DNA of 64,000 bases from Candidatus Woesearchaeota archaeon. GTDB lineage: Archaea; Nanobdellota; Nanobdellia; Woesearchaeales; JACPBV01. Both the position numbers and the translations under genes were made by a program. The DNA lies in contig JACPBV010000004.1 in the NCBI GenBank assembly GCA_016180135.1, forward strand, positions 26,868-90,867, in the 5' to 3' direction. This document shows, one piece after another, positions 15,658 to 62,935 of the stretch. The first letter of the stretch is position 1. The number at the start of each line of letters is the position of its first letter. The notes beneath the pieces were generated by a model. That model did no database searches, was not told where the DNA came from, and saw nothing but the letters and a program-made list of their open reading frames with translations.

Positions 15658-15690
15658 GATTTAGGGGCGGTTTAAAAGCTTTATCCTCTG

Positions 15691-15864
15691 GTATGTATTA
15701 AGCTCCGGCAAGAGCGGCTCTGCCATCCTAAGGTCAAAACTCAACTATCAAACTAAATCGCGCTCGTCGTGGGGGGATGCCCCCTCGGGGACACAGAGCC
15801 CTTGCCAAATCAATTGGGAGTTTTGAAGAGGGCAGAGCCGCTCCAAGGGGAGCTTAATACATAC
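15691..15864. mobile_element. family-B long-hairpin MITE-like element, copy B1 (174 nt)
   Basis: The 16-bp terminal inverted repeat is gtatgtattaagctcc / ggagcttaatacatac. Inner perfect stems are gagcggctctgcc/ggcagagccgctc (13 bp) and tcaaaactc/gagttttga (9 bp). The GC-rich core is ggggggatgccccctcggggacacagagcc. The flanking 8-mers match only imperfectly (atcctctg vs cttctgca). Confidence 0.7.
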
Positions 15865-15937
15865 CTTCTGCAGGCCTCCCCGAATTAAGTTCAGATATAC
15901 AATAAACCCGCCTCAAATCTCTATCTCACCCAAACGC

Positions 15938-20948: not shown

Positions 20949-21003
20949 AAGGAAAACCTGAGATGGGAAAAACTGAGAGTGTATTTAAAGATTTGTGTGT
21001 TTG

Positions 21004-21177
21004 GTATGAATTAAGCTCCGGCAAGAGCAGCTCTGCCATCCTAAAGTCAAAACTCCATCCAAAAAGACAGCCAGCCCGTTGCGGGGGGTTGTCCCTTACG
21101 GGGACGCAGGGCCATCGCCAGACTTATCGGGAGTTTTGAAGATGGCAGAGCCGCTCCGAGGGGAGCTTAATTTATAC
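21004..21177. mobile_element. family-B long-hairpin MITE-like element, copy B2 (174 nt)
   Basis: The inverted repeat is gtatgaattaagctcc / ggagcttaatttatac. The same 13-bp and 9-bp inner stems are present. The core is gcggggggttgtcccttacggggacgcagggcc. The flanking 8-mers tgtgtttg / ggtgtttg match 7 of 8. Confidence 0.75.
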
Positions 21178-23763: not shown

Positions 23764-23930
23764 GCGGCTCCGTTCAAAATATAGGTTAGCAGCCTAAAGT
23801 AAAAATCATTTGCCCTCTGAATCCAGCTGACAAGGGGGACGCCCCCAACGGGGAATGTCAGCAACTGAAAAATCACTTTGGGATTTTTAAGCTGCTAACC
23901 CGAGCGAAGCGAGATTTTGAACGGAGCCGC
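23764..23930. mobile_element. family-C long-hairpin MITE-like element (167 nt)
   Basis: Terminal inverted repeat gcggctccgttcaaaat / attttgaacggagccgc (17 bp). Inner stems are ggttagcagc/gctgctaacc and gctgaca/tgtcagc. The core is agggggacgcccccaacgggg. An 11-bp direct repeat gcaaaatcagc sits at 23755-23765 and 23929-23939. Confidence 0.7.
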
Positions 23931-24714: not shown

Positions 24715-24829
24715 GAAAATTTCAACAACCTCGGCGAGGCGAGGCTGGGGGTCGCCCCATCGGGGTAGCCGAGCAGGGCAAATTTCCAGAGGAAATTTGA
24801 CCGTCGAGCCATGTGTTGTTGAAATTTTC
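24715..24829 (+). repeat. family-A structured repeat, copy A1 (115 nt)
   Basis: A 15-bp closing stem gaaaatttcaacaac / gttgttgaaattttc encloses ctcggc...gtcgag, a GC hairpin (ggctg-ggggtcgccccatcgggg-tagcc) and the hairpin caaatttcc-aga-ggaaatttg. Confidence 0.75.
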
Positions 24830-24858
24830 GCGCATTGCACCTCATAAGAGGTGTCTTT

Positions 24859-24955
24859 AAATGCAAACATTTAATCATTCTCCTGCTAATCGGATTTTTT
24901 TTTTGAATGCAAATATTTAATGATTCTCTGGATGGTGGTGGCCGGATTTCGTTTA
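24859..24955 (+). repeat. degenerate family-D-like element (D3), adjacent to A1
   Basis: aaatgcaaacatttaatcattctc and gaatgcaaatatttaatgattctc resemble the D 5-prime end aaatgcaaatattcc. ggtggccggatttcgttt resembles the D 3-prime end ggtggtcggatttctttt. Confidence 0.35.
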
Positions 24956-26823: not shown

Positions 26824-26853
26824 TGTTGAGTCAGCATCTCCCTGCGGGCGGTT

Positions 26854-27003
26854 AAATGCAAATATTCCACCAGTCTTTGACTGGTGGTTGACGCTCGATT
26901 AGACGTTGGGAATATTTGCCTTCTCAGAAATCCGACCCGAGCGACCGAAGGGAGCGAGCAATCCCCCCCGTCTGTGACGGGGGGTGGTCGGATTTCTTTT
27001 GAA
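26854..27003 (+). repeat. family-D two-domain structured repeat, copy D1 (~150 nt)
   Basis: Domain 1 is gcaaatattcc/ggaatatttgc enclosing ccaccagtc-ttt-gactggtgg. Domain 2 is agaaatccgacc/ggtcggatttct enclosing cgagcgaccgaagggagcgagc and ccccccgtc-tgt-gacgggggg. Confidence 0.7.
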
Positions 27004-27628: not shown

Positions 27629-27688
27629 GCTGCTGAAATTTCAGCAATGTTTAAAAAGGTTCCTCTATTCGAAGAATAAGGAAAAATC

Positions 27689-27987
27689 GTATGTATTAAG
27701 CTCCGGCAAGAGCGGCTCTGCCATCCTAATGTCAAAAACTGTTGTTTTTGAGCATGCTCAGAAATCGTAACTATTATAATAAGATATGACGATTTCTGAC
27801 AGGTCAAAACTCAACTGTCTAACTGAATCACGCTCGTAGTGGGGGGATGCCCCCTCGGGGACACAGAGCCCCTGCCAAATCAGTCAAGAGTTTTGAAAAC
27901 CCTAAGAAGCGAAGTTTCGTGGGTGCCAATAATGCGCAAGCATTATTAAGCATGGCAGAGGCGCTCCAAGGGGAGCTTAATACATAC
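27689..27987. mobile_element. family-B element, copy B3 (299 nt), carrying two nested insertions
   Basis: Same 16-bp inverted repeat and core as B1. Perfect 8-bp flanking duplication gaaaaatc (27681-27688 and 27988-27995). Relative to B1 there are extra segments of about 70 nt in the 5-prime arm and about 55 nt in the 3-prime arm. Confidence 0.8.
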
Positions 27988-28000: not shown

Positions 28001-28990
28001 ATGGCGCAGAAAAAAGCCCTTATAACAGGAATCACCGGCCAGGACGGCTCGTATTTGGCAGAATTGCTCCTGAAGAAAGGCTATCAGGTCTTTGGGATGT
28101 TCAGGCGCTCGAGCAATGACCCCTTTGACAGGATCAGAAATATCCTGGGAAAAATTCAGGTTATGGGCGGCGACCTCACGGACCAGGCCTCAATGCTTGA
28201 GATCATCAAAAAAGTTCATCCCGACGAAGTCTATAATCTTGCTGCGCAGAGTTTTGTCCCGACGTCCTGGGAGCAGCCCATCCTCACGGGAGAGGTGACT
28301 GCTTTGGGCGTTACCAGGATTCTCGAAGCGATCAGGCACGTTGACCCTAAGATCAAGTTTTACAATGCCGCATCCAGCGAGATGTTCGGCAAGGTCACCC
28401 AGACGCCTCAGAATGAGTCCACTCCCTTTTATCCGAGAAGCCCCTATGGTGTCTCAAAGGTCTATGGGTTTTACATCACAAAAAATTACCGGGAAAGCTA
28501 CGGGATGTTTGCCGTCAACGGTATCCTCTTCAATCACGAAAGCCCGAGGCGTGGCCTGCAGTTTGTGACGAGGAAGATCTCTCACGGTGTTGCATGCATC
28601 AAGCTTGGCCTTCAGAAAGAGCTCCTGCTCGGCAATCTGGATGCGAAGCGTGACTGGGGATATGCCCCTGAATACACTGAAGCGATGCATCTGATGATGC
28701 AGCATAAGCATCCCGAGGATTTTGTCATTGCCACCGGAGAGATGCACAGCGTCAGGGAATTCTGCGAGGCAGCATTCACCCACGCCGGCCTTGACTACAG
28801 AGATTATGTAAAAACAGACCCATTATTCCTCAGACCCGCAGAAGTCGACCTTCTTGTTGGCGATATCTCAAAAGCCAAAAAGCTCTTGGGCTGGCAGCCA
28901 AAAGTGAAGTGCAGAGAATTGGCAGAGCTGATGGTTGATGCGGATTTGGCTCTGATGAAGGGCGCCCACAAACCCCAAAGTCTTTCTTAA
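28001..28990 (+). CDS. gmd: GDP-mannose 4,6-dehydratase
   Basis: [44 protein letters not shown] and NHESPRRG are hallmark Gmd motifs. Confidence 0.93.
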
Positions 28991-29078
28991 GTTCAATTCT
29001 AAACCTAATCTTATCATTTTAGGCTTCATCCCCTGACGTTAGGGAAATGAAGGCTAGCGCACAATAAACGTTTTTTTT

Positions 29079-29230
29079 GAAAATTTCAACAACATCGGCG
29101 AGGCGAGGGAGGGCCGCCCTCCGTCCGCAGACCGGAACGCTGGATTATCCCTCCGTCCGCAGACCGGAACGCTGGATTATCCCTCCGTCCGCAGACCGGA
29201 ACGCTTTTTTTTCCCTCCGTCCGTTTTCTC
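29079..29230 (+). repeat. family-A element, copy A3: 5-prime half only, followed by tandem expansion
   Basis: It starts gaaaatttcaacaacatcggcgaggcgaggg as other A copies do, then runs into 32-nt tandem units. No gttgttgaaattttc 3-prime arm is present. Confidence 0.6.
29117..29223 (+). repeat. perfect 32-nt tandem repeat (ccctccgtccgcagaccggaacgctggattat), 2 full units plus 24-nt and 11-nt partial units
   Basis: Units read directly at 29117-29148, 29149-29180 and 29181-29204, then T8, then ccctccgtccg. Confidence 0.9.
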
Positions 29231-29258
29231 AGAACTAAGCCAACAGGTATCAGCAAGA

Positions 29259-29266
29259 TTTATATA
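29259..29266 (+). promoter_or_regulatory. TATA-like box (tttatata) 24-31 nt upstream of the ATG at 29290
   Basis: Position and composition. Confidence 0.45.
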
Positions 29267-29289
29267 ACCTCCCCGACCTGATTCAGTGA

Positions 29290-30507
29290 ATGAAACCTGA
29301 TATGATGAGGCATATTGACAGATGGGCAGGCATCCCGTTATGCTTCCTTTTTTCAGTCCTCAACAGTATCGGGCGCCTCATCCGGGTAAGGAATCTTCCA
29401 AAAAACTTCAGGCCGAAAAACATCCTTTTTATCGAGCTCTCGGAGATGGGAAGCACCGTCCTTGCCTACAGCGCTATGAAAAAAGCCAAAGAGCTTTTCA
29501 GCGCAAACCTCTTTTTCATGATCTTCAGGGAAAATGCGGAAAGCGTGAAGCTGTTGGGCATCATCCCGAAAGAAAACATCATCACGGTCAGGAGCAAAAA
29601 TATCTTTGCATTGGCTTGGGACACCCTCGCTGCCATCATAAAGATGCGCAGGAAAGGCATTGACACCGTCGTTGATCTGGAGCTCTTTTCACGCTTCACT
29701 TCCCTGCTCAGCTATTTTTCCGGCGCTAAGGCAGTTTCCGGCTTTTACAAATACCACATGGAAGGGCTGTATCGTGGAAATTTCCAGACTCACAAAGTCC
29801 AATACAACCCATTCTACCATATCAGCCAGAGCTTTGTGGCCCTCGTGTATGCCCTTGCAGAAGACCCTCGCCAGCAGGTGCCTCTCCTCAAGAGGGCAAT
29901 CCCCTTATCGGAGATTGTCGCCTGCAGTAAGCCATCTTCTCATCAGGAAAAGAAAAGGCTGCTTGCAAAGCTGCAGCATAGTAATCCAGGCATCAGCGAA
30001 AAATCAAATATAATCCTTCTCAACCCCAATGCCTCCCAGCTTCTTCCCCTAAGGAAGTGGCCGATAGAAAATTTCAAACAGCTGGCAAAAAAACTGCTCC
30101 ATGCCCCAGACACCTTCGTCATCATAACGGGCGTAGCTTCAGAAAAGCCCGACGCAGAAGCAATCTGCAGGTATGTCGCCAGCGACAGATGCATTGACTT
30201 TACCGGCCAGACAACATTAAGCGAGCTCATCTGCTTGTTCAATATCGGCAAAGCCCTAATAACCAATGATTCCGGTCCAGCGCATTTTGCCTCCCTCACC
30301 CAAATCAAAATTTTTGTCTTCTTCGGCCCTGAAACCCCTGCCCTCTACAGGCCGTTAAGCGCAAACTGCACGCCTCTTTACAGCAATTTTGCGTGCTCCC
30401 CCTGTGTCTCAGCCTTCAACCACAGAAAGACACCATGCGCCGATAATAAGTGCCTCCAGGCGATTAGCGTTGAGGATGTTTTTGAGAAAGTGAAGAAAAA
30501 TCTGTAG
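29290..30507 (+). CDS. glycosyltransferase family 9 (heptosyltransferase-like)
   Basis: ILLNPNASQLLPLRKWPIENFKQLAKKLL...FVIITGVASEKPDAEAI...FTGQTTLSELICLFNIGKALITNDSGPAHFASL matches the GT9 C-terminal pattern. Confidence 0.75.
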   Translation: MKPDMMRHIDRWAGIPLCFLFSVLNSIGRLIRVRNLPKNFRPKNILFIELSEMGSTVLAYSAMKKAKELFSANLFFMIFRENAESVKLLGIIPKENIITVRSKNIFALAWDTLAAIIKMRRKGIDTVVDLELFSRFTSLLSYFSGAKAVSGFYKYHMEGLYRGNFQTHKVQYNPFYHISQSFVALVYALAEDPRQQVPLLKRAIPLSEIVACSKPSSHQEKKRLLAKLQHSNPGISEKSNIILLNPNASQLLPLRKWPIENFKQLAKKLLHAPDTFVIITGVASEKPDAEAICRYVASDRCIDFTGQTTLSELICLFNIGKALITNDSGPAHFASLTQIKIFVFFGPETPALYRPLSANCTPLYSNFACSPCVSAFNHRKTPCADNKCLQAISVEDVFEKVKKNL

Positions 30508-32627: not shown

Positions 32628-32791
32628 GTATTTGTTTAGCATCCTAAGATCGAAACGCTTCTGGGCTTACCGTTGGGTCCGTCGCGGGGGCCGCCCTCCT
32701 TCCCGAAGGGACAGGAACGTTTTTCCACCCCTACGGGGACGCAGGACATCCATATCTCCCGTCGAGCGTTTCGAAGATGCTAAACAAATAC
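32628..32791. mobile_element. family-F long-hairpin MITE-like element (164 nt), related to family B
   Basis: 16-bp perfect inverted repeat gtatttgtttagcatc / gatgctaaacaaatac. Perfect 8-bp flanking duplication gtttcttc (32620-32627, 32792-32799). The core is cacccctacggggacgcagg. Confidence 0.8.
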
Positions 32792-34274: not shown

Positions 34275-36009
34275 CTCCCGGTTTTGTATTCTCTACGATA
34301 GACACAAGCGGATTGGAATAAACCTCCTTTAACCACTCATTTTTCAGCAGCATGTCCCTGATTGCCAGATTATACTGGGCAAGCGCAGGCTGTGAGGCTG
34401 CCTTGTCGAAATAATAATATTCCGCAGCGCATAAATCTTTGAGCTGCTCTTCCTGAGGCACAGGATTATAGGGCTGATATTCCGCCAGGCAGGAATAAGA
34501 ATTGTTCTTCGGCTTGAGATTAAAGTCAAAATAACAGAAGGAAAAAAAGCCGTTCGGATGGAGATACACTGGATACCCGTCAACAAGGTTGAACTCATAG
34601 GCTCTCCTTAATTCCTTCGACTGAAGCGCCTGGATGTAAGGCTTCACCCTGATGTTGAACGCAACCCTCTCAGAGTTATAGAGCGGCGCATTATGGGTCA
34701 GCGCATCAGAGTAAAAATAATGGACAGCAGATTCTTTAGGGATGTTTTTTGATATCCACTGCAGCCCTTCCCAGTCGTAAGCGTTCATGATCCCCTGCCC
34801 GACGTTGGTGTTCCCGAATACAGACTGCCCAAAAATTCCGATGAGGATGATAGAGGCGATGAACACTATCGGCGATGGGGTTTTTTTCAGCAATAATCCT
34901 ATTGTGCTATAGGCGGCAAATCCAAAAAAGAACGACAGGTAAATGAACCAGAATAACCGGTGCGCATACGCCCTCTTCCCGAAGCCCAGCAGGATGAGAT
35001 AGCCTAAAAGAAAGCAGAACAGCGAGATGAGCGGCGCAAGGATATGCTCTTTTTTGGACAGGAGGAAAAACACAATCCCTGCCAGCGCAATGATCCCGAA
35101 GATGCCGAGGTTGATGAGGTTAAATTCAGGATACCCTCCTGCCCACTGCGCAGGATCCCAGGTGCTTCTGAACCCCTCAGAGAGGAGGAATGATTTGGAA
35201 AATACCATGAGAGAATAAAAGCTGAGGATGCCGGTAAGCAAAGCCAGCAGGATAATTTTTTTAAAAAGCCCCGATTCAATGTTCTTTGCCTTCCAGACAT
35301 GAAATCCTATCATTCCGGCAAAAAACAATCCTGCCCAGGTGAATTCCGGCTGGTGCACTAATGCAGTAGCAGAAAAAAACAGCGCAAGAGGCGCCACAGA
35401 GCGTTCCTCATGAAACTTGGCCATCGCCCAAAAAGCAGCCAGCATCGTCATAATTCCCGCTAACAGCAGCCAATATCCCCAGAAGATGAGCGGGGTGAGC
35501 TTAGCGGACAGCATCAGCAGTCCTGCAGGCAGCGCAAGCATCGCGATCTTTTTGCTCGACCGCCTCCAGATGAAATATGCTGCAAGGATCGCAAGGAGGA
35601 AAGACAGCACCGCTAGAAAAGGCAGCGCATCAAAAACCTCAATTCCTGCAGCTATGCTGAGTGTCGCAGCGAGGTGATACAGCAATGGCGGATGGGTGTC
35701 TAACACTCCCTCATAGCCCCCGATAGACCATGGAGCTGCCCATTTCACCCCGCCTGTTTCCTTTGCATATTGCGTCATCGCCTGGTGGAAAAATGCATCG
35801 GACGCAAGATACGATGTTGGAAACTCATGCTCAATCTTATGCTGCCATGGCTGCCCTAAAGCGATAAAGAGGAACACGATTGAAAAAATGACTATCAGCC
35901 CGGCCTCAAAATCAAAGAGTCTTTTTTTCTTTGGCTGCAGAAGATTGAGGGAAGATGGCGTAGGCAGTACATCGGGCGTATGAAGATTATGCTGGTGCTC
36001 TTCCTCCAT
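34243..36009 (-). CDS. polytopic membrane protein, GT-C-like (putative glycosyltransferase)
   Basis: 588 aa with more than 10 TM segments. First-loop motif: YLASDAFFHQAMTQY. A TATA-like ggtatataaacc lies at 36031-36042, upstream on the minus strand. Confidence 0.5.
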   Translation of the reverse strand: MEEEHQHNLHTPDVLPTPSSLNLLQPKKKRLFDFEAGLIVIFSIVFLFIALGQPWQHKIEHEFPTSYLASDAFFHQAMTQYAKETGGVKWAAPWSIGGYEGVLDTHPPLLYHLAATLSIAAGIEVFDALPFLAVLSFLLAILAAYFIWRRSSKKIAMLALPAGLLMLSAKLTPLIFWGYWLLLAGIMTMLAAFWAMAKFHEERSVAPLALFFSATALVHQPEFTWAGLFFAGMIGFHVWKAKNIESGLFKKIILLALLTGILSFYSLMVFSKSFLLSEGFRSTWDPAQWAGGYPEFNLINLGIFGIIALAGIVFFLLSKKEHILAPLISLFCFLLGYLILLGFGKRAYAHRLFWFIYLSFFFGFAAYSTIGLLLKKTPSPIVFIASIILIGIFGQSVFGNTNVGQGIMNAYDWEGLQWISKNIPKESAVHYFYSDALTHNAPLYNSERVAFNIRVKPYIQALQSKELRRAYEFNLVDGYPVYLHPNGFFSFCYFDFNLKPKNNSYSCLAEYQPYNPVPQEEQLKDLCAAEYYYFDKAASQPALAQYNLAIRDMLLKNEWLKEVYSNPLVSIVENTKPGVDCFGNAATA

Positions 36010-36154
36010 ATGTTCCAGAAAAATTCGTCGGTATATAAACCATTCGCTAAATTCTTTTCCTTTCTTCCCTCGATAAAGGTGGGCATATTATCTTTGCACA
36101 CCCTACAGCCCTATCCGCACTAACAGCACAACATCTCTAACCGCACTAACGGCC

Positions 36155-36919
36155 CTAAACATACTCCCCGCCATCGGCAGGCAGGTCATAATGGGTGATC
36201 ACAGCAAAAGCCAAAAATCGCCCGAATTTATAGGAGAATCCTGAAGTAGTTATTTTTCCAACCTCTGCGCCGTTGATTGTCACCCTCTCAGGAATCTTGG
36301 TATAAGCTATTCTCACCAGCTTTCTGGCCGGCCTGCCAAGATTCCTCACCCTTGCCATCACTTCCTGGCCGGGATAGCATCCCTTTGAAAAAGAGGCCTC
36401 ATCCTCCCGGGCAATCTCAAGGAACATCTGCTGGTCAAAATCAATGCCCTGAACCGCCATATTGTTCTCAAGCCGAAGCGCAGTATATACTCCCTCAGAA
36501 ATTTCCTTGATCCCCTGGATGATTGAGAGCCTGTCGGTAAGCGCAAGATACCCGAGAGGCTGGGGAATCCTCAGGGTTCCGGCAGCATGGTTCCCAAAGA
36601 TGTGCAGCACCCTCAGCGGCATCTCCTCAATGGCGACTTTTGCAAGCTTCGCATATTTCTCAGCCGATTCCAAAAACCTCCCTTTGAACCTGTCTTCAAA
36701 AGCCAAATAAACTTCATCACCGGTAACCAACTGATCAAAAAGAACTGTTAGTTTTCCAAAACGGTCAAGCAGTGCATTTTTTGTCTTATCAAGCGTATTG
36801 CAGGATATCCTCTCAAGAAGCTGCTTCCCGCCCTTGCCAAACCTAAACACCGCTTTGGCCAGAGGCTTATAGCCTCCGGTGATCATTGCGCTGGTGTATT
36901 CTTCGAGGATAGAGTCCAT
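36155..36919 (-). CDS. ygfZ: YgfZ/IBA57-family folate-binding protein (GcvT-like)
   Basis: The family signature KGCYPGQEVMARV is present, and the length is about 250 aa. Confidence 0.8.
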   Translation of the reverse strand: MDSILEEYTSAMITGGYKPLAKAVFRFGKGGKQLLERISCNTLDKTKNALLDRFGKLTVLFDQLVTGDEVYLAFEDRFKGRFLESAEKYAKLAKVAIEEMPLRVLHIFGNHAAGTLRIPQPLGYLALTDRLSIIQGIKEISEGVYTALRLENNMAVQGIDFDQQMFLEIAREDEASFSKGCYPGQEVMARVRNLGRPARKLVRIAYTKIPERVTINGAEVGKITTSGFSYKFGRFLAFAVITHYDLPADGGEYV

Positions 36920-38562: not shown

Positions 38563-38631
38563 GATACCCAAACAAGATACCTCAACAAGATACCCAAACA
38601 AGATACCTCAACAAGATACCCAAACAAGATA
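38563..38631 (+). repeat. 13-nt tandem array (gatacccaaacaa / gatacctcaacaa alternating, 5 units plus a partial) starting right after the ArsR stop codon
   Basis: Units read directly. The effective period is 26 nt, about 2.6 copies. Confidence 0.85.
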
Positions 38632-38722
38632 GATGAGTATGATGCACGAGTAATGCGGGAGGTAAGATAAGGTGTATCGGGGTTGCAGGACTGGAAAATA
38701 CAACTATTTTGGAGGAAAAAAC

Positions 38723-39154
38723 ATGATAAAACTTATAAAAGAAAAATTGGTTGGATGGGCTGGCAGCATTTCAAGCGCTGCAAGCATCATGGGCTCGTGG
38801 CAGATATGCCATAGCATCTGCTTAGGCCTGATCTCGCTGCTGAGCATCATCGGCATTACGGTAGCGGGGATGCCTCTGCTCTTCCTTACTGAAATCGCTG
38901 TTCCGATGTGGACGGTTGCGTTGGCAATTTTCATCATAACCCTGTGGCTCTACCTCACAAAAAAATGTATCTCTCCTAAGCTTTTGCTGCTTAATGCCGG
39001 GCTCATCATCGCAGGCACTCCTTTCCAGCAGCTCCGGCAATTCCAGATTTATTTCTGGGCAGTTGGTGGCCTGATTGCCGCCGGAGCAGTCGGCTGGTAT
39101 CTCAAAGACAGGCTTGCCGGGAAAATCCCGCACCAAAAAGGGGGGAAGAGATGA
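38723..39154 (+). CDS. small membrane protein with intramembrane CxxxC motif (putative metal-handling accessory protein)
   Basis: [15 protein letters not shown]...[16 protein letters not shown], with 4 TM segments. ggagg lies 8 nt upstream of the ATG at 38723. Its stop overlaps the copA ATG (ATGA). Confidence 0.5.
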
Positions 39155-41745
39155 AACACTCAAAAAATCGGAGCATGATAAATCCTGCCAAGAGCATGTC
39201 AAGGTCCGGATCAGGTGAGCTGGCAGCGGCAGATAAATCCTCCAGAAAAATAACACTGTCAATCAGCGGGATGCACTGCGCTTCCTGCGCCGCAAATATT
39301 GAAAAAGCGCTCGGCAGGACGGAGGGGGTAAAGACTGGCACGGTGAACTTTGCGTCCGAAAAAGCCACGATTGTTTTTGACCCGGAAAAAACTGATGAGC
39401 CTAAGCTGAAAGCTGCTATCATCAAAACGGGCTACAAGGTTGTTGAGCAGGGAAATGCTCAGGAACCTAAGCAGGGTGGGCAGGGGATGGGGCAGGAAAA
39501 GGGGAATGCCGGTAGCAAAGGCGGATTCAGCGAGCTCCGGCTTAAGGTTGTTGGGATGGATAACCCTCATTGCGTCTCAACGGTTGGCGATGCCCTGAAT
39601 CTTGTCAAGGGCATCATCTCAAAAGAGCTGTCTGCCAGCCAGAATGCTGTCATCACATTTGACTCATCAAAGGCATCTCCGGATGAGATAAAAAAAGCGA
39701 TAGCCAAAGCAGGCTATGAGCCCGTCGAGCTGTCTCCTCAGCTTGCGGACAGGGAAAAGGAAGCAAGGGCAAAGGAGATCGGAAGGCTCAAGAAAGAGAT
39801 TATCTTTGGGTTTATCTTAAGCATCCCAATTTTTATCCTCTCTTTTCCGCAGTGGTTTAAAATAATGCTCCCCTATAATCACTACATTCTTTTTATCCTG
39901 ACAACGCCTGTCCAGCTGATTCTAGGAAGGCGTTTCTATACCGGCGCTTACATCGCATTGATGAATAAATCTGCTAATATGGATTCCCTTATCGCAATCG
40001 GGACTTCGGCTGCCTATGTCTACAGCTCGTTAGGGACTTTTTTCCCTTCAACATTTGGCGATGCGATGTATTATGACACTGCGGCAGTGATTATCACATT
40101 CATCCTTCTTGGCAAATACCTTGAGGCAGTCACCAAGGGAAAAGCATCGGAGGCGATCAGGAAGCTCATCGGGCTGCAGGCAAAGACTGCCGTCATCATA
40201 CGGGGCGGGAAAGAAGTGGAAATCCCCGTCGATCAGCTTCAGGTGGGAGACATTTTCCTTGTAAAGCCCGGAGAGAAGATTGCGACGGATGGGATTGTCG
40301 CTTCAGGCGCTTCTTTTGTTGACGAGTCTATGGTCACTGGCGAGAGCATTCCCGTAAAGAAAGGGATGGATGATGCTGTTATCGGATCAACCATCAACAA
40401 GCACGGGCTCCTGAAAGTCAGGGCAGCAAAAGTCGGCAATGAGACGATGCTTTCCCAGATCATCAGGCTGGTTGAGGATGCGCAGGGCTCGAAAGCCCCT
40501 ATCCAGAGGCTGGCTGACAAAGTTTCAGGGATTTTTGTGCCCGCAGTAATAGCGATAGCTGTCATCTCATTTTTGTTCTGGAACTTCATGGCGCCGCAAT
40601 GGCTTTCGTTATCCCCCACACCATTCTTGTTTTCATTGGTCATCTTCATCTCGGTCCTTATCATTGCATGCCCCTGCGCTCTCGGGCTTGCGACGCCGAC
40701 AGCCATCATGGTCGGCACAGGAAAAGGCGCTGAGCATGGCATCCTCATCAAGAATGCCGAAGCATTGGAGACTGCCCATAAGATTACAACTGTTGTTTTT
40801 GATAAGACCGGCACACTGACAAAAGGCGAGCCGTCGGTAACTGATATTATCCCATTGGGCTCAAGTCTCAACCGGCAGGAGCTTCTTTTTTATGCTGCCG
40901 TCGCAGAAAAAGGCTCTGAGCACCCGTTGGCTGAAGCGATAATGAAAAAAGCGAAATCTGAGAAACTGATTGTTCCTGATGCATCCTCCTTTTCAGCAGT
41001 CCCGGGAAAAGGCGTTATAGCAAAGCACAAAACCCATTCCCTGCTCGCAGGCAGCCCGAAATTCCTCTTGCAGAAGAAAATTTCTTTTCCTCAGGGGGCT
41101 GAAGAGCAGATTGCGAAGCTCGAAGGCGAAGGAAAGACCACCATTGCTCTTGCCGTCGATGAAAAGCCAGCCTGCCTCATTGCGGTTGCCGATACCCTGA
41201 AGGAGAGCTCGCAGGAGGCATTACGCTCCCTGAACAGCCTGGGCATTGAAACCATTATGATCACGGGAGACAACGAAAGAACTGCAAAAGCAATCGCTTC
41301 CAAGGTTGGAATCAGCAAGGTTCTCGCAGAAGTCCTCCCTCAGGACAAGGAAAAAGAGATCAAAAAGCTCCAGTCCCAGAACAATGTAGTTGCGATGGTC
41401 GGCGACGGCATCAATGATGCTCCGGCCCTTGCCCAGGCAGACGTCGGCATAGCGATAGGCGCCGGGACAGACGTTGCCATAGAGACTGGCCAGATAGTGT
41501 TGATAAAAAGCGACTTGCGTGATGTGGTCACTGCAATTAAGCTGAGCTCCTACACCATAAAAAAGATCAAGCAGAATCTCTTCTGGGCGTTTGGCTACAA
41601 CACCTTAGGGATACCGATCGCAGCCGGCATCCTGTATCCGTTTACTGGCTTCCTCCTAAATCCGATCATCGCAGGCGCTGCGATGGCATTCAGCTCCGTC
41701 TCTGTCGTCGGAAACAGCCTGCTGATGAGAAGGTGGAAAGGGTGA
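39151..41745 (+). CDS. copA: copper-translocating P1B-type ATPase
   Basis: An HMA domain ([15 protein letters not shown]) and a second, degenerate HMA domain are present. The CPC motif ([10 protein letters not shown]), DKTGTLT and [10 protein letters not shown] are all present. Confidence 0.95.
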
Positions 41746-43017: not shown

Positions 43018-43065
43018 TCCAACTATATAAAGATTTCATTTTGGAGTATGGATTAAACTGTAAAA

Positions 43066-43184
43066 GAAAATCCCAACAACAAAGGGCTCGACGGTCAAAT
43101 TTTTCTCTGAGAAAAATTTGCCCTGCTCGGGCACCCCGATGGGGCGACCCCCGCCCTCGCCTCGCCGATGTTGTTGGGATTTTC
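43066..43184 (-). repeat. family-A structured repeat, copy A2 (119 nt, inverted orientation)
   Basis: The closing stem is gaaaatcccaacaac / gttgttgggattttc. It differs from other copies by three compensatory pairs. The inner modules are conserved in reverse complement. Confidence 0.75.
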
Positions 43185-43238
43185 CAAATGCAGTCTATTT
43201 TTTTCTTCGACGGAGCTTAATACCTGCATTTCAGGGTT

Positions 43239-45812: not shown

Positions 45813-45933
45813 GAAAATTTCAACAACATCGGCGAGGCGAGGGCGGGGGTTTGTCCCTTACGGGGTGCCCGAGCAGGGCAAAATTTCCACAGAGGAAATT
45901 TTGACCGTCGAGCCCTTTGTTGTTGAAATTTTC
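45813..45933 (+). repeat. family-A structured repeat, copy A4 (121 nt)
   Basis: Same closing stem as A1. The inner hairpins are gggcg-ggggtttgtcccttacgggg-tgccc and caaaatttcc-acaga-ggaaattttg. Confidence 0.75.
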
Positions 45934-46032
45934 GCACATTGCAACCTAAAACTGCAGTTATGGGGAAGTGCGTTGATTGGGGGACACAATAGGGATTTAC
46001 ATCAATCCCCTTTACAACACCATTCGAGTATT

Positions 46033-46180
46033 AAATGCAAATATTCCACCAGTCTCTGACTGGTGGTTGACTCTCGATTAGCCATTGGGAATATTTGCCT
46101 TCTCAGAAATCCGACCCGAGCGACCGAAGGGAGCGAGTAATCCCCCCGTCTGTGACGGGAGGTGGTCGGATTTCTTTTGA
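46033..46180 (+). repeat. family-D two-domain structured repeat, copy D2
   Basis: More than 90 percent identical by eye to D1 (26854-27003), with the same four stems. Confidence 0.7.
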
Positions 46181-47211: not shown

Positions 47212-47502
47212 TTGGCTTCAAAAGAAGGCATGGAGACGGATGTAGACAGAGTTCTTGCTAGTGTCAGGAAGAAGCGTTTGCTGATGGAAGTCGAGGTCAA
47301 GGGCCTCATCGAGAAGAAGGAAGAGGAAATTTCCATCCCCTTAAGCATTTTCTCGGAGAGATTAGGCATGCTTGAGTCTATCGTTCATTATCTCAGGGAT
47401 TCTCATGGGCTTTCTTTTACAGAGATTGCAGGGCATCTAAAGCGGGACTACAAGACAGTCTGGGCGACATATCAGCAGGCAAAGAAAAAGTATAAGCGAT
47501 GA
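47212..47502 (+). CDS. small helix-turn-helix protein (sigma-70 region-4 / LuxR-like HTH), translationally coupled to the giant ORF
   Basis: LGMLESIVHYLRDSHGLSFTEIAGHLKRDYKTVWATYQQAKKK looks like an HTH. The stop overlaps the giant-ORF ATG (ATGA at 47499-47502). The start may be TTG 47212 or ATG 47230. A TATA-like ctttataaac lies at 47181-47190. Confidence 0.55.
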   Translation: MASKEGMETDVDRVLASVRKKRLLMEVEVKGLIEKKEEEISIPLSIFSERLGMLESIVHYLRDSHGLSFTEIAGHLKRDYKTVWATYQQAKKKYKR

Positions 47503-50500
47503 AACAATCCAGCAAAGTTAAGGAAATCAGCGCAGGCATAAGGGAGCTCAGGCTCTCAGGGAAAAATGCCGATAATGCCAGAAAGAGCTATGCAAGGCTG
47601 CTGGAAGCCTTGCTTCAGGAAAAAGAAAAACTGCAGTCTCATCTCAGCAAAGGGATTCTATCAGAGCAGAACTATGATCAGATTCTCCAGGAAAATCTTG
47701 ACGGCAAAACCAGGATGCAATGGATTGCCTATTGTGAAAATATCCTTGGCAGCGCAGATTCCAAAAAACAGCAGTATCGCCGATGGGTCGGAGTTCTTGA
47801 GGACGACATTGGCCGGATTAAACGATCTTTCAGGAAGGGAAGCATCTCCCAGGAAGCATACCATCATCTCCTGAACCAGAAGATTGAGGGAAAAACCAGG
47901 GAAGGATGGATTGTATCCGCAAAAATGGCGTTGTATGGTCTGGAAGAGGGTGAATCCCTGGCGGGCGCTCAGGGAATTTTAAGCCGCAGCGCATCGTCAG
48001 TAATCAGAGCATCAAAATCGCTGCTAGAAGAGAAAAAGGAACTCCTCGTTAACACCGCCCCTATAATATTGATGCTCTTGCTTCTCAGCCTCTCAGCTTT
48101 TTTTATCAGCCCGGCGCACACCGGATTTGCAGTCATAAGCATAGAGAATGGATTTGAGGATTCCTTAAACCTCTCCCTCAACGGGTCATCCTCATTCCTC
48201 TGGGCCCCGGCCAGCCACGGAATGATAACGAACATTGCAGTCAGCGGAAGGCTTTCAAAAGGTGCCGGAGCAAAAATCTACCTCGAAAAGGCCGGCAGGC
48301 TTTATCTGCTCCTTGATACTGAAGCTGGCTTGAAGACAGAAACAGTTTTGCAGGAAATTCCCGGCATTGCTGCTGGAATCAGTTCCCTCCCGCAGCAAAA
48401 GATCCCCCTCACCGGAGAGATTGAAAACCTATCTGTTGCCCTTATCGGCTCAGGGCCAGTTCAATCAGCAAATGATATATTTAAATTCGGCTTGAAGCAA
48501 AGGGCAGGATTAGACAACAGCTCTTCAGTCCCTGATGAGAACTTCTGCGCACTATGGAAAGTGAACAATGTTTCGGCAGAGTGCTATGGAAATGCTGACT
48601 GCTGCAGTTTTGCGGGCCTCGAAGCCAGTGGCTCCTGGAATGATACGTTCTACCTGTATTCCGGAAGATTCAGCGCAAAGAAAGACAATCTCATTGAGCC
48701 AATCCTTATCTCTTACGATGTCAATCTGAGCATCCCGAAGTCCGATATTAGGATTTCCTCCGCAGTTGCGGAAGCCCATTTTGCGGATGAGCTGGAGAGA
48801 TTCAGCCTTGCATGCATGGAAACGTGCAGCGGCCTGGAGTTTAACGAATCGCGATACTCTCTTGTTGTCTCTTTGGCAATTGGCTCGCTCATCCTTGACA
48901 GCATCTCTTACAAAATGGCCGAAAGCTATAACGTATCAGAAAATTCCCCTCTGCTCCAAAAGAACATCTCTAATGTGTCGCTCTACCAAAACGAAAACAT
49001 CACGTTAAGCCTTAATGATTTCTTTGCCGATGCAGACTCCGATGCGCTGGTATACTATGCTTATCCTGCAGAAAATATCAGCTTTTCTTTTTACCAGGGG
49101 AACATCACCGTCATCCCTGATAAGGATTTCCTCGGCAAAGCATCAACATTTTTTACTGCCTCAGACGGCTTTTTTAATGCCACTTCAGGAATAATTGATA
49201 TTGAGGTTGCTGAAAAGCCGCTCCTCCCGGCTCAGGTATCGGTCACCCAAACTCCCATAAAACCCAAGGTAAGGGTCAATGAGCCGGTGAAATGGGTTAC
49301 AAGAGTTAATTCCACCAGGAAAGTCATAAACCTCACGATGAGCCTGGCGCACGGGGCTGAGAACATCTCCGTCAGAGAATTGACTCAGGGCAGCATTGAT
49401 ACCTCAAGAGTCATTGATACATCCAAAGTGATTGATACATCCAAAGTGATTGATACCTCAAGAGTCATTGATACTGCTGGATTCATGAATCTTAAATCAG
49501 TATTTGTCAGCGAGCAGGGCCAGACTAAAAACCTCTCGCTCTATAATGCCGAAAAGTATTTGGCCAGGCTTGAATCCAGGGAGGAGATGCTTATTGAAAC
49601 CAAAAGGGGAAAGATTAAAAATGACCCGACGGAAATTGAAGCTCTGAAATCTCTTAACACCCAATTGCGTGATGTTGAAAACGAGAAAAACCGGATTACA
49701 GGATTTGTTGTTGCCCAAAGAGGGCAGAAAGGCATTATAACCCGATTTTTTGAATGGCTCATCCAATCAGACCTCGTCGGATTTGCCATCCTCAACGCCC
49801 CATTAGCTCCAATCACCACTCCCTCCACTAATCTCATCCCCACCCCCACAACTAATCACGCCACTAACTCCTTCCCCACTCCCTCCACTAATCTCATCCC
49901 CACCCCCACAACTAATCTTGAAGAGCCTGGCGAAAATGCCCATCCCCCAGTATTGACGATTGCCGAGGGGATTAAAGAAGCCGAGATTACTTATTTCACG
50001 GAAGCTCCGGTTGCCGAGGAATTCAATCTGTCAGAGTCAGGCAAGCGCATTATCATCAGCTCAGACATCCACTATGAAAACATTACGGCTTTCACTTACC
50101 TCCCCGGCGAATATGCCTCTTCAGGCATCCATCTGTATTGGATGAAAAACGGCTCAAGGGAAGAGGTAAATTTCACAGCATTTGATGAAAACAATAACGG
50201 CAGGATTGATTATATCGAATGGATCATCCCCTCGTTGTCAAACCAGACATATGATCTCTCCCTCACCATCATCACACTGAAGAGTTATCCTATCATTGGA
50301 AGAAACTGGACGACAGAGTTTAATGTTTCCGGCACAGCAAACCTCACGATCACTGCAGTCAACAGCACAAGTTTTGGCCAGGTCTACGTTGACAATTTCT
50401 CCTCGGAAGACGACCTCTATCTCAGGGAACTGAAATGCGGTAATCTCACCGTATGGAACAACGGCACAAATTATTCATCAGGCAATGTTTTCTTCGTCCT

Positions 50501-53500
50501 CAGCAATGGCACCGAGGCAGCCTGGAGCGAAACATTCGGAAACAGCCTTCCAGTAACTTCCTTAAAAGTTGTTGACTTCAGCTGCAGCAGTTCAGCGTAT
50601 CACATTGTCAAGGTTGAAACCCACGGGGACCATGTCCAGGAATTCACTTTTGGAAATATCACAAAATATGCTTACAATCATGCAGGGGGGACAGCATGCG
50701 GTTCAGACGGCCTCGGCTCAACCTGCCAGGGAGGGGGAAATGCCAGCCTTGACACGTGCATTGATACTGACAGCTCTAACACGCTTGATGGGTCGGATTT
50801 CTGCCATGGCGCTAACCAATGCCTTGATTCCCATATCGGCGCTTCCTGCAACTATGCCACCGGCCCGACATCAGGGCTCTGCGCCTACAACGGTGCAACC
50901 TCTGCAACCTGCTCAAACCTCGTAATCTCCGGGGAGTATGGCACAGGCATAACTGGCGGTTCTTCAGTAAACTTCCACAGCGGCAATGAAAATTCATCAT
51001 GCTCCCCTGCATCAGAGATGATGGTCTGCAATATCTCTACGGGATACAACCCTCAGGGCGGTGATCTCTGCCTCGACTCATCATGCACGGATCCTGCAAG
51101 CGGGATTGTTTCCCTTAACTGCATCGATCAATCCTGCTCAACGTCGGATGTCAGTGATGCGGCAGTATTCGGCGACTGTAATGCCACGGGCGGAGGCTGG
51201 GCCTGTGACAGCAGCCTTGGCTCATCAGGGTTTGCCCAGGACGGGATTTGCTCAGTGACCTCTGGATTTAACACCTATGGGTGCGCAGCTTCCGGATATA
51301 TCTGCAATGCTACCTCGGGCCCTTTTGCCGGAACTATCTTCAAAAATGGCTGCGGTGTTGGCATGGAGTGTTCAGACAACGATCCCTGCGACTCCTCATT
51401 GACAGACGGCAATTTCAATAAGGCAGCAGGCACATGCTCGGGCACAGACTGTGTCGGTGTCGCAGTTGCCAGCATCTATGCATTCAACCACTCTAAAACC
51501 TCGCCGACAAGCCTCTACCTCGTGAACGGCTCAGTGAACTCCTCCGTCATCAACGGAACAAATATAACCCATAATCAGACCTTAAACTTTACCCACCCGA
51601 CGTTTGGCCTTCGGCTCCAGATTATCGCAAACTTCTCAAGCTGGGATGTTGACATTTCCAACCTTACCATTGACGCAAACAACTTCAGCACTGCCGTGAA
51701 TTGGACATTTGTTGACCAGAGAGCTGTCCCCAAGAATCACACGCTCTACGTCCCCAACACCCTCCAGCTTGGCGTGTATGCATGCGGAACAGCAAACAGC
51801 ACAGGGGAAGTTTTCCCAAAATGCCCGAACAGGACGGTCTGGACGGACTCGGAATTGGGGGCAGGCTCGGTCGTCGTAAGGAATGGGCTCGTAGCGTATG
51901 AGCTTTCTAATCGTTACGTTGTCTCCAACCTTTCGGGCTCCGGAATAGGTCAGGGTGTTGCAGAATGCGGAGCGCTAAACCGTGAGAACGTCACCTATAA
52001 CCTCCTTCAGTCAGTCACTGATACTGACACCTGTTTCACAATCTCCGCCAATAATGTTACGCTTGACTGCAACAATTTTTCCATCACTTATGCAACTGCA
52101 GCTAACGGTAATGGCATCACCGTCAGCAATGTAAACAGGACAACGATCAGGAACTGCACCTTCATCAAGACCTCCGGTCAGGGCTCCTCATATGCCGTTC
52201 AGTTGTCTGGAGCAAACAATGCATCCATCAGCAACAGCTCATTCACTGCTGCTTCTTTAATTTCTTACCCGATTTACCTGACTTCATCCTCAAGGACAAA
52301 CCTGATTCAGAACAACAACATCACCGCTTCAGGAGGGAGCCCCGGAATCTATATTGATTCTTCCTCGGGACAGAACATCATCCTTAACAACAACATTACG
52401 ACTGTCGCAGCCTCGGCGCCTGCTGTTTACATCACTGGCTCTTCCAACAACACCCTTGACGGGAACAATATCACCACCGCCGGAAAAGCATCGTTCGGCA
52501 TACAGCTTGATGCCTCATCTTTTAACACAACTATAATCTTTAACAACATTACGACCGAAGGGAACTCATCTCACGCAGTCTATATCCTTGCAGCCTCAAA
52601 CTTTACCAAAGTATTGAAAAATGTAATCATCACAAAAGGATGGACATCATCCGGTATCATGATTTCTGATGCGTCATACAATATGGCCGAGAACAACTCC
52701 CTGGATATCCTCAACAGCACTAACGCAGCCTTTTACATCAACCAAAGCTCGCTTGCAAACAGCTTTTCAAAAAACAATGTGACTTTCTCAAGAGGGGACG
52801 CAATCCATATCATCTATGACCCGAAGCCGACCTCAGATGGGGGGCCTGTCCCGAGGTTCAATAATTTCTCGAACAACACGTTCTCCAATATATCCGGCTT
52901 TGACCTGATGCTCACCCCTATGATAAGTGCTCCCGGAGTTTCCCAGATAAACCTTACCACCCTGATTGACCAGCCCATAAAGAGATACAACTTCACCAAT
53001 TATGGCGGCTTGTTTGCCATAAGGTCATCCGAATTTGGGGAAATCGCTTTTTTCACCGTCATCAACGGCTCAGGAACAAATTTCAGCAATGATATTATCA
53101 TCAAAAATAATTCTATCACAGTTAATGCTTCAGCAGGGAATGGAATATTCAACAGCTCAGCAAACCTTACATTCTTTAACCTAGGGGACAGGGGCTTTGC
53201 CAATCCCGCCATTCTTTACAACGGTGGAACGTGTGATTTAACCACCTCCCCGCTCTGCCTGAACTTTACCGGCCTTACTGCTGCGACGGTCATCTTGAAT
53301 GTTACTCATTTCAGCAATTACAGCATCGGGGGTCAGGTTGATTTAAGCACACCTACTGTCTCTGTCATCTCGCCAACGCACAGGAACTACACGCTAAGGC
53401 AGATCGACTTCAACATTTCCCTGAATGAGGCAGGGAGCGCATGCAAAATGGCATTGGACAGCGAGGGAAATATCACGATGAGCGCTGTAAACAGCTCTTA

Positions 53501-62608: not shown

Positions 62609-62844
62609 GAAAATTTCAACAACATTGGCGAGGCGAGGGTGGGGCCGCCCTCCGTTGCGAAGCAACCGGAACGCAGGATTATTCCTCCGTCCGCAGACCG
62701 GAACGCTTTTCCCCCCCATCGGGGTGCCCGAGCAGGGCAAAATTTTCGCGGAGAAACCTCCGAGCGGTAGCGAGCGAGGCACAAAAAACCCTAAAGGGTT
62801 TTTTCGTGAATTTGACCGTCGAGCCCTTCGTTGTTGAAATTTTC
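62609..62844 (+). repeat. family-A structured repeat, copy A5 (236 nt, expanded)
   Basis: It has the canonical closing stem. Two copies of the ccctcc-hairpin-ggaacgc submodule are inserted in the GC hairpin, and the AT hairpin is enlarged. Confidence 0.7.
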
Positions 62845-62935
62845 TGCGCAATGCAGCTTATAAAGAACCCACAAAACCTGTTTTATTTAACCGTCTTTTT
62901 CAGAAAGCTTTAAAACAATTCTTTGACTTATGCCT

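What the first reader, a model, noticed from the sequence alone, without database searches (positions are those of the whole stretch)
29079..29230. A3: a family-A element whose inner hairpin submodule has expanded into a perfect 32-nt tandem array
- A3 starts like other A copies, then carries ccctccgtccgcagaccggaacgctggattat twice in full, followed by a 24-nt unit, T8 and an 11-nt unit. It lacks the 3-prime half.
- The same submodule occurs twice in A5 (62650-62715) and once in family F (32688-32722).
- In all three the flanks are conserved (ccgccctcc ... ggaacg) but the hairpin differs in a structure-preserving way. It is tccg-cagac-cgga in A3, gttgc-gaa-gcaac in A5 and tccc-gaa-ggga in F.

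A small hairpin cassette is therefore shared between repeat families and can amplify in tandem.
Basis: seen in the sequence. Interest (0 to 1): 0.7.

Follow-up and report, generated by a model that had tools for sequence, protein, structure and literature searches.

The report
Amplifiable hairpin cassette inside archaeal MITEs
A 24-base hairpin unit sits at the tip of several families of small mobile repeats in a Woesearchaeota (DPANN archaeon) genome and has been duplicated in tandem at this locus, much like the boxB module of pneumococcal BOX elements, so it is real and tidy but a variant of a known kind of repeat.

Summary
Window 29117-29223 holds a 32-nt tandem array: a 24-nt unit plus the 8-nt linker TGGATTAT. 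Two periods are perfect. They are followed by a third unit, T8 and an 11-nt partial unit. The array sits in a family-A element that has lost its 3' half.

The window is archaeal, from a Candidatus Woesearchaeota MAG. Families F and G are true MITEs with terminal inverted repeats and target-site duplications. No duplication was seen for family A.

The unit always lies at the apex of the element's long hairpin, between a G-run and a C-run. It occurs in three hairpin variants that keep one fold: 8 pairs, a bulged C, and 3 pairs with compensatory changes.

In a related MAG (GCA_016180165.1):
- The same units sit in F and G elements.
- Near-identical F copies exist with and without the cassette.
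- A second, independent array of at least 4 units breaks the assembly.

Arrays are uniform within a locus but differ between loci in their linker, which points to amplification in place.

My best reading is a BOX-like modular MITE. The apical cassette expands by slippage or unequal recombination, and it moves between MITE families through their shared core. Any function, such as an oligo-T terminator, is only inferred. This is a new variant of a known kind, of moderate interest.

The parts
29079..29113 (+). 5' half of family-A element A3 (end repeat GAAAATTTCAACAAC, then GGCGAGGCGAGGGAGGG)
   Evidence: Aligns with A copies at 24715, 43188(-), 45813 and 62609.
29114..29148 (+). Lead-in CCG, unit 1 (29117-29140, CCCTCCGTCCGCAGACCGGAACGC) and linker TGGATTAT (29141-29148)
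   Evidence: Covariance model R1 scores it 44.6 bits.
29149..29180 (+). Unit 2 plus linker, a perfect copy of 29117-29148
   Evidence: family D6.
29181..29212 (+). Unit 3 (29181-29204) followed by T8 (29205-29212) in place of the 8-nt linker. The T8 is an oligo-T run of the kind that terminates archaeal transcription.
   Evidence: Identical in Logan contigs L038-L040 from other runs. R1 scores it 40.6 bits.
29213..29227 (+). Partial fourth unit CCCTCCGTCCG, then TTTT. The A element is cut off here.
   Evidence: No A 3' end nearby.
62609..62845 (+). A5, a full family-A element. It carries a two-unit cassette: CCG, then gttgc-type unit 62648-62674, linker AGGATTAT 62675-62682, A3-type unit 62683-62706 and T4 62707-62710. 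It also carries a second, unrelated internal insertion at about 62758-62808.
32628..32791 (+). Family-F MITE with an 8-bp target-site duplication (GTTTCTTC). It carries a single cassette: CCG, ttccc-type unit 32694-32719, T5 32720-32724.
23764..23930 (+). Family-G MITE without a cassette (apex GGGGG-AC-GCCCCC-AACGGGG), flanked by the direct repeat GCAAAATCAGC. This is the empty counterpart of the cassette-bearing G element in the related genome.
   Evidence: (I20).
24715..24830 (+). Family-A copy without a cassette (apex GGGG-GTC-GCCCC-ATCGGGG)
43065..43188 (-). Family-A copy without a cassette
45813..45933 (+). Family-A copy without a cassette. It folds into one long hairpin (z = -5.3).

Best explanation
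A3 is a copy of a MITE-like element (family A) that has lost its 3' half, in a Woesearchaeota genome. At the tip of the element's long hairpin, between a G-run and a C-run that at least four local MITE families share, sits a small non-coding module.

**The module.**
- A 24-27-nt unit: CCCTCC, a short hairpin with a bulged C, then GGAACGC.
- The unit is followed either by an 8-nt linker (WGGATTMT) that leads to another unit, or by an oligo-T run.

**How the array arose (inferred).** At this locus the unit-plus-linker (32 nt) was duplicated in place, by replication slippage or unequal recombination between neighbouring units. The very stable C-GNA-G mini-hairpins probably favour this. The result is 3.3 copies.

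**How the module spreads (inferred).** It passes between MITE families by recombination or gene conversion across their shared G-run/C-run core. I do not think it transposes by itself.

**Likely effect (inferred).** It is mainly a selfish or structural passenger. Where the last unit ends in T4-T8 on the sense strand downstream of a gene, it probably adds an archaeal oligo-T termination signal.

**What is shown.** The anatomy, the sharing between families and genomes, presence/absence among near-identical hosts, independent arrays, and conservation of the fold.
For: **Organism.**
- Archaeal SRP RNA lies at 62939-63211.
- The GMD and XPD proteins are 100% identical to proteins named Candidatus Woesearchaeota archaeon.

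**The hosts are MITEs.**
- They have terminal inverted repeats and long-hairpin folds, with z from -5 to -7.
- F has 8-bp target-site duplications.
- G has an 11-bp flanking direct repeat.
- An F element in the related MAG has no counterpart in the orthologous window spacer 36009-36155.
- No transposase is encoded in the window.

**Position of the cassette.**
- All 8 cassette loci found lie between the G-run and the C-run of a MITE apex, in one orientation.
- A covariance model finds no cassette outside MITEs in 210 kb of held DNA: true units score at least 35 bits and noise at most 12.5 bits.

**The cassette is a discrete module.**
- Two F copies in the related MAG match at 64/64 bases on the left and 61/63 on the right. 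One has the loop ACGA where the other has a 38-nt cassette.

**Amplification in place.**
- Units and linkers are identical within an array.
- The linker is TGGATTAT in A3 and TGGATTCT in the array of at least 4 units split between L044 and L042.

**Conservation.**
- The units are identical between the two genomes (24/24 and 27/27 bases).
- Neighbouring genes are 71-81% identical at the DNA level, and the G host element is 93% identical.

**Fold.**
- 8 pairs are 91% paired, with 3 compensatory pairs.
- All loops are C-GNA-G, including GCGAAGC, the extraordinarily stable DNA mini-hairpin (PMC13037366, PMC3201870).

**Precedent.** Pneumococcal BOX elements are boxA-boxB(n)-boxC. In S. suis, boxB is shared by elements with different ends (PMC3049150).
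Against: - The slippage mechanism is inferred from array uniformity only. No strain-level or read-level length variation was seen.
- Single units do not fold better than shuffled sequence (z -0.4 to -2.3).
- Only three hairpin types exist, so the covariation evidence rests on few independent events.
- Zero differences between genomes, against 7-29% divergence elsewhere, could also mean active mobility or strong selection. A passive-passenger model does not by itself explain this.
- The recombination route between families rests on the apical loop being replaced rather than cleanly interrupted. Insertion followed by loop loss is not excluded.
- The terminator idea is weak. A bacterial-type terminator scan does not flag the cassette. 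Two of seven arrays have no T-run. A separate T8 (29071-29078) already precedes A3.
Confidence: 0.62

Rival explanations
1. The cassette is itself a very small mobile element, a parasite of MITEs. It inserts specifically into the single-stranded tip of the G-run/C-run hairpin. This would resemble the 21-27-nt small dispersed repeats of cyanobacteria, or REP sequences moved by a Y1 (HUH) transposase. Arrays would arise by repeated insertion next to an existing unit.
For: - Near-identical F hosts differ only by the cassette.
- The same units occur in three MITE families that have different ends and different target-site duplication lengths.
- Units show zero divergence between genomes whose genes differ by 19-29%.
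- Conserved flanks around a hairpin that varies in sequence but keeps its structure are typical of sequences recognised as folded single-stranded DNA.
- The C-GNA-G loops are DNA-stable motifs (PMC13037366).
Against: - There is no clean insertion signature. In A and F the original loop (GTC, ACGA) is replaced and a CCG lead-in always comes with the cassette.
- Linkers are locus-specific within arrays, which argues for local duplication rather than repeated insertion.
- No cassette was found outside a MITE apex.
- No Y1/HUH or other transposase is in the DNA available.
- REP hallmarks, a 5' GTAG and inverted pairs, are absent.
Confidence: 0.2
2. The units are functional RNA modules kept by selection. 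They would be 3'-UTR hairpins that end transcripts at the following oligo-T run, or that stabilise or mark mRNAs by binding a protein. Arrays would be selected to multiply the effect.
For: - Four of five T-run-bearing cassettes lie directly downstream of a gene on the same strand: A3, A5, F in the window, and L034.
- The one array antisense to its neighbours (L042 G) has no T-run.
- The fold is conserved with compensatory changes.
- The flanks CCCTCC and GGAACGC are invariant across families and genomes.
Against: - The sample is tiny, and the orientation bias is not significant.
- A sense array between co-directional genes lacks a T-run.
- There is no Rfam match.
- The bacterial-type terminator scan is negative.
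- Archaeal termination needs only oligo-T, so the hairpin is left unexplained.
- A T8 already precedes A3.
- No expression data are available.
Confidence: 0.13
3. The array is an assembly artefact, a k-mer cycle expanded or chimerically joined, and no tandem amplification exists in the organism.
For: - Logan contigs from several runs break exactly at the array edges.
- The related MAG's array also breaks its assembly.
- The unit number is therefore unverified.
Against: - Breaks at a perfect 32-nt repeat are what a k=31 graph does when the repeat is really present at two or more copies.
- The right edge (unit, T8, partial unit) is identical in three independent runs.
- The longest internal repeat is 60 nt, well inside read length.
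- Independent multi-unit arrays occur in assembled sequence at A5 and at L042 6269-6325.
Confidence: 0.05

Closest known systems
BOX elements of Streptococcus pneumoniae and S. suis (boxA-boxB(n)-boxC composite MITE-like repeats; Croucher et al. 2011, PMC3049150)
   Same: - Terminal modules form the inverted-repeat stem.
- An internal short module folds on its own and is absent, single or in a tandem array.
- Array length is thought to change by slippage or unequal crossover.
- In S. suis the same boxB lies between different end modules (AC and EF), just as this cassette lies in families A, F and G.
   Different: - The sequences are unrelated, and the host is an archaeon (DPANN), not a bacterium.
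- The unit is 24 nt plus an 8-nt linker, against 45 nt for boxB.
- The unit comes in three hairpin variants.
- It sits inside a conserved G-run/C-run apex shared by at least four MITE families.
- The last unit often ends in oligo-T.
- Copy-number variation between strains has not been shown here.
REP/BIME mosaic elements and REPIN clusters of Proteobacteria (Bertels and Rainey 2011, PMC3116915; BIME literature from my own knowledge)
   Same: - Short imperfect hairpins with conserved flanks lie in intergenic DNA.
- They are combined with defined linkers into arrays of variable length.
- Arrays are uniform within a locus.
   Different: - REPs alternate in orientation or form inverted pairs and carry a 5' GTAG. 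Here all units are direct and have no GTAG.
- REPs stand alone in intergenic DNA. These units were seen only inside MITE apices.
- No RAYT gene could be looked for.
Small dispersed repeats (SDR, 21-27 nt) of Nostoc and relatives (Elhai et al. 2008, Genome Res 18:1484; cited in PMC3116915; content from my own knowledge, paper not held)
   Same: Very small repeated modules found inserted into hairpin contexts and into other repeats. Their mobility is inferred from presence/absence.
   Different: - They are cyanobacterial, with different sequences.
- Here the apical loop is replaced rather than cleanly interrupted.
- Here tandem amplification with a fixed linker is prominent.
Archaeal MITEs in general (census by PMC11602168, which lists a Woesearchaeal genome among the most MITE-dense archaea at 105 per Mb)
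   Same: The host elements F and G meet the MITE definition, and the lineage is known to be rich in MITEs.
   Different: As far as I read that census, it does not describe internal shared cassettes or their tandem amplification.

Membership tests
MITE (host elements A, F, G) | Terminal inverted repeats, small size, no coding capacity, multiple copies | tested here: met
   Inverted ends and 120-240-nt lengths for A (5 copies), F and G. Long-hairpin folds with z -5 to -7.
MITE (host elements A, F, G) | Target-site duplication and presence/absence at orthologous sites | tested here: met
   F has 8-bp duplications: GTTTCTTC, AAAAAATA, GAAAAATG. G has an 11-bp direct repeat. An F element in the related MAG is absent from window 36009-36155. 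No duplication was seen for family A itself.
MITE (host elements A, F, G) | A cognate transposase elsewhere in the genome | not testable with these tools
   Only 64 kb of this genome and about 33 kb of the related MAG could be read. None was found in the window.
BOX-like modular composite repeat | An internal module that is absent, single or tandemly repeated between constant end modules | tested here: met
   Family A has 0 units (three copies), 2 (A5) or 3.3 (A3). Family F has 0 (two copies), 1 (three copies) or at least 5 (at least four A3-type units plus one degenerate ttccc-type unit). Family G has 0 or 2.
BOX-like modular composite repeat | The same internal module shared by elements with different ends | tested here: met
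   Identical units occur in A, F and G.
BOX-like modular composite repeat | Copy number varies between strains at one locus | not testable with these tools
   Logan contigs break at the array, and no read-level data are available.
BOX-like modular composite repeat | Sequence homology to boxA/B/C | not tested
   I see no resemblance by eye. The organisms are in different domains, so membership is by organisation only.
REP / BIME (RAYT-associated) | Conserved 5' GTAG and inverted or alternating arrangement of hairpins | tested here: not met
   Units are all direct, and the flanks are CCCTCC and GGAACGC.
REP / BIME (RAYT-associated) | RAYT (Y1 transposase) gene in the genome | not testable with these tools
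CRISPR array | Repeats separated by unique spacers of similar length | tested here: not met
   Units are joined by an identical 8-nt linker, with no spacers. No CRISPR family was hit in the array.
Known RNA family (Rfam 15) | A match at or near the gathering score | tested here: not met
   Only the archaeal SRP RNA passes in the window. Permissive scans of A, A3, F and A5 gave hits far below threshold.
Intrinsic terminator | Bacterial type: a GC-rich stem directly followed by a T-run | tested here: not met
   The scan does not flag 29181-29212, 32694-32724 or 62683-62710. A bulge and the AACGC spacer intervene.
Intrinsic terminator | Archaeal type: an oligo-T run of about 5 or more on the sense strand downstream of a gene | tested here: inconclusive
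   T8 is present at A3, T5 at F and T6 at L012 and L034, but only T4 at A5 and none at two arrays. There are no transcript data.

The most novel reading that the evidence does not exclude
The 24-40-nt cassette is an independent, very small mobile layer that parasitises MITEs in DPANN archaea. It is recognised as a folded single-stranded DNA hairpin with conserved flanks, is inserted into the apical loop of the shared G-run/C-run core, and can seed arrays. If so, these tiny genomes carry a nested, Russian-doll hierarchy of mobile palindromes: outer MITE ends, an inner shared core, then the cassette. The enzyme that moves it has not been identified.
Probability: 0.2. Interest if true: 0.7.

Novelty: new variant of a known kind. 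Interest (0 to 1): 0.45.

Why it matters
- It shows that episymbiotic DPANN archaea with small genomes can carry a dense, layered set of MITE-like repeats built from exchangeable modules. This organisation was known mainly from streptococcal BOX elements and enterobacterial BIMEs.
- The cassette is a handle on how such repeats recombine and grow. The choice is between recombination at a shared core and an unknown loop-targeted insertion process.
- The oligo-T-tailed units may shape transcript ends in a lineage with no genetics.
- In practice these arrays break short-read assemblies (Logan contigs here, and two contigs of GCA_016180165.1). They could also serve as length-variable markers for tracking strains in groundwater metagenomes.

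Tried and rejected
- **Genome collection scan** for CCGCCCTCC-N10-20-GGAACGYTTTT. It gave 34 hits. I estimated about 24 by chance, and of the six I read, only the two from one related Woesearchaeota MAG were real; the rest I took to be chance. The window's own genome is not in that collection.
- **Metagenome scan** with the A-family 5' motif. It returned only two loci, which have A-like cores with other outer stems and no cassette.
- **Three viral-contig scans** found nothing.
- **Fetching more of this genome.** The NCBI contig is not in the gene-position index.
- **More distant Woesearchaeota** (XPD about 52% identical; L045-L049), and relatives of the giant protein's C-terminus (L050, L051), lack the elements.
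- **CRISPR, coding repeat and known RNA families** were rejected.
- **Bacterial-type terminator** was rejected.
- **Folding the whole A3 array** gave no signal (z -0.34). Single units are also not significant.
- **Origin of the unit by duplication of the host core segment** (CGGGGACGCAGGA against CCGGAACGCAGGA). The match is 12 of 14 bases and 41 of 2000 shuffles score as well, too weak to claim.
- **K-turn, bulge-helix-bulge, tRNA-like and HDV-like readings** were considered by eye and dropped for lack of the defining motifs.

Full report
**1. Observation**

It begins with 35 nt that match the 5' half of family A (GAAAATTTCAACAACATCGGCGAGGCGAGGGAGGG, 29079-29113). Then come:
- CCG
- a 24-nt unit, CCCTCCGTCCGCAGACCGGAACGC (29117-29140)
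- an 8-nt linker, TGGATTAT
- a perfect second copy of unit plus linker (29149-29180)
- a third unit (29181-29204)
- T8 (29205-29212)
- an 11-nt partial unit (29213-29223)
- TTTT

Tandem Repeats Finder gives period 32, 3.3 copies and 94% matches. A3 lacks the A 3' half.

Two details need correcting. A5 holds one gttgc-type unit and one unit of the A3 type. The predicted fold of the A3 unit is UCCGUC-CGCA-GA(C)CGGA, not tccg-cagac-cgga.

**2. Is the array real?**

Logan assemblies from three other sequencing runs start at 29180/29181 and are identical from there on. A fourth contig ends at 29108, inside the repeated A 5' half. That is the behaviour of a k=31 graph at a genuine 32-nt cycle.

The longest internal repeat is 60 nt, so normal reads can resolve three units. 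The unit number remains unverified at read level.

**3. Organism and setting**

The window carries an archaeal SRP RNA. Its GMD and XPD proteins are 100% identical to proteins named Candidatus Woesearchaeota archaeon, on a 117.8-kb NCBI contig.

The genes are a glycan-biosynthesis cluster, XPD, PCMT, a P-type ATPase and a 4988-aa ORF. There is no transposase. A3 lies between GDP-mannose dehydratase (28001-28990) and a family-9 glycosyltransferase (29290-30507), on their strand.

**4. The hosts are MITEs that share an apex**

- Family A has five copies, and F and G also have inverted ends. The elements fold into one long hairpin.
- F is flanked by 8-bp duplications and G by an 11-bp direct repeat.
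- An F element in the related MAG is absent from the orthologous window spacer.
- A, F, G and a fourth family (15689-15865, 21002-21177, 27687-27987) have different ends but share the same apex: closing stem, G-run, 2-5-nt loop, C-run, 2-3 nt, CGGGG.
- The A core keeps a fold with 10 compensatory pairs across window copies and two metagenome loci.
- No Rfam family matches any of these.

**5. The cassette outside the window**

A scan of 185,579 species genomes for a single cassette with a T tail gave 34 hits, close to my estimate of about 24 by chance. Of the six I read, two were real, both F elements in one related MAG, GCA_016180165.1; the rest I took to be chance. Syntenic contigs of that MAG (GMD 78% identical at the protein level) added four findings:

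- (a) In the orthologous GMD-glycosyltransferase spacer there is a G element in the opposite orientation. It carries a two-unit cassette almost identical to that of A5.
- (b) There are two F copies with an empty apex (GGGGGG-ACGA-CCCC). One of them matches the cassette-bearing F copy L034 at 64/64 bases on the left and 61/63 on the right.
- (c) One F element is split between the ends of contigs L044 and L042 by an unresolved array. The array has at least four A3-type units, with the linker TGGATTCT, plus one degenerate ttccc-type unit.
- (d) A covariance model of the unit finds only these units in 210 kb of held DNA. True units score at least 35 bits and noise at most 12.5 bits, and none lies outside a MITE apex.

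More distant Woesearchaeota lack the elements.

**6. Structure and conservation**

The three unit types share one fold:
- a lower stem UCC(G/U) paired with (C/A)GGA
- a bulged C
- an upper stem of 2-4 pairs
- a loop GAA or CGCA

Across 8 pairs, 91% of cells are paired and 3 pairs change on both sides. Only 1 of 500 shuffles reaches the observed covariation score, and shifted registers fall to 11-54% paired.

Single units do not beat shuffled sequence, and only three types exist, so this support is modest. All loops are of the C-GNA-G kind, including GCGAAGC, the extraordinarily stable DNA mini-hairpin (PMC13037366, PMC3201870).

Units are identical between the two genomes (24/24 and 27/27 bases). 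Neighbouring genes are 71-81% identical at the DNA level, and the G host element is 93% identical.

**7. Mechanism**

*Shown:*
- The cassette is a discrete module at the MITE apex.
- It is present or absent among near-identical hosts.
- It is shared by three families and two genomes.
- It has been amplified independently at two loci.

*Inferred:*
- Amplification happens in place, by slippage or unequal recombination. Each array is uniform but carries its own linker variant, and stable mini-hairpins favour slippage.
- Transfer between families goes through recombination at the shared core. In A and F the original loop is replaced and a CCG lead-in always travels with the cassette.

The rivals are a tiny loop-targeting mobile element, a selected RNA or terminator module, and an assembly artefact.

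The terminator idea has only weak support. Four of five T-tailed cassettes lie just downstream of a gene on the same strand, and the one array antisense to its neighbours lacks a T-run. Against it, a sense array also lacks a T-run, the bacterial-type scan is negative, and a T8 already precedes A3.

**8. Comparison and novelty**

The closest known organisation is the BOX element: boxA-boxB(n)-boxC, with boxB folding on its own, varying in tandem number and, in S. suis, shared between elements with different ends (PMC3049150). BIME/REP arrays, REPIN clusters (PMC3116915) and cyanobacterial small dispersed repeats are also related in kind.

A MITE census already lists a Woesearchaeal genome among the most MITE-dense archaea (PMC11602168). 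In the parts I read it does not describe this cassette.

I rate it a new variant of a known kind, for four reasons:
- It is archaeal.
- Its unit is much smaller than boxB.
- It has three covarying hairpin types.
- It sits in an apex shared by MITE families with different ends and different duplication lengths.

**9. Verdict**

Interest is moderate (0.45). The finding is well documented and extends beyond the window, but it is not surprising in principle, and its function is still unknown.

Noticed in passing
window 62939-63211 (+): An archaeal SRP RNA gene (Rfam RF01857, 155.6 bits) lies immediately downstream of element A5. This is what identified the window as archaeal.
   Followed up: partly
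window 47499-62465 (+): A single 4988-aa ORF with internal coding tandem repeats (for example 49394-49474, 49812-49918, 60626-60745). Homologues of its last 500 residues are rare: 4 hits.
   Followed up: partly
window 15689-15865, 21002-21177, 27687-27987; also L034 about 1660-1850: A fourth MITE-like family has outer ends GTATGTATTAAGCTCC... and an inner part (ATCCTAAGGTCAAAAC...) that resembles the inner part of family F. It has the same G-run/C-run apex and is always empty. The 27687-27987 copy carries two extra internal insertions. This suggests nested or chimeric elements.
   Followed up: partly
window 62758-62808: A5 has a second internal insertion, absent from other A copies. It contains the perfect hairpin AAAAAACCCTAAAGGGTTTTTT. 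No other copy was found in the DNA held.
   Followed up: partly
window 26852-26968 and 46031-46147; partial at 24857-24944: A 117-nt repeat, 96% identical, starts with TTAAATGCAAATATTCCACCAGTC. Two of the three copies lie within about 100 nt of family-A copies; the 26852 copy does not.
   Followed up: no
window 29250-29279 and L042 about 6412-6441: A conserved block, TCAGCAAGATTTATATAACCTCCCCGACCT, contains a TATA-like box about 30 nt upstream of the glycosyltransferase start. It is probably the promoter. Both genomes carry a different MITE just upstream of it (A3 here, a G element in the related MAG).
   Followed up: partly
window 38563-38631: A perfect 26-nt tandem repeat (GATACCCAAACAAGATACCTCAACAA, 2.7 copies) lies in the spacer upstream of ORF 38672-39154.
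   Followed up: no
window 1040-1156: A 12/36-nt tandem repeat (GGAGAGTGTAAA, 9 copies) lies inside ORF 281-2002, a glycosyltransferase.
   Followed up: no
L044 2866-5408: In the related MAG, the stretch syntenic with the window's P-type ATPase (39151-41745) has no called gene over 2.5 kb. It may be a frameshifted pseudogene or an assembly error.
   Followed up: no
L036 8490-8590 and L037 about 940-1060 (-): A-like cores (CAACAAC...GGCGAGGCGAGG...GTTGTTG) occur in two JGI metagenome contigs. They have different outer stems and a different variable hairpin; one has GCGAAGC at its tip. The A core is therefore wider spread than the cassette.
   Followed up: partly
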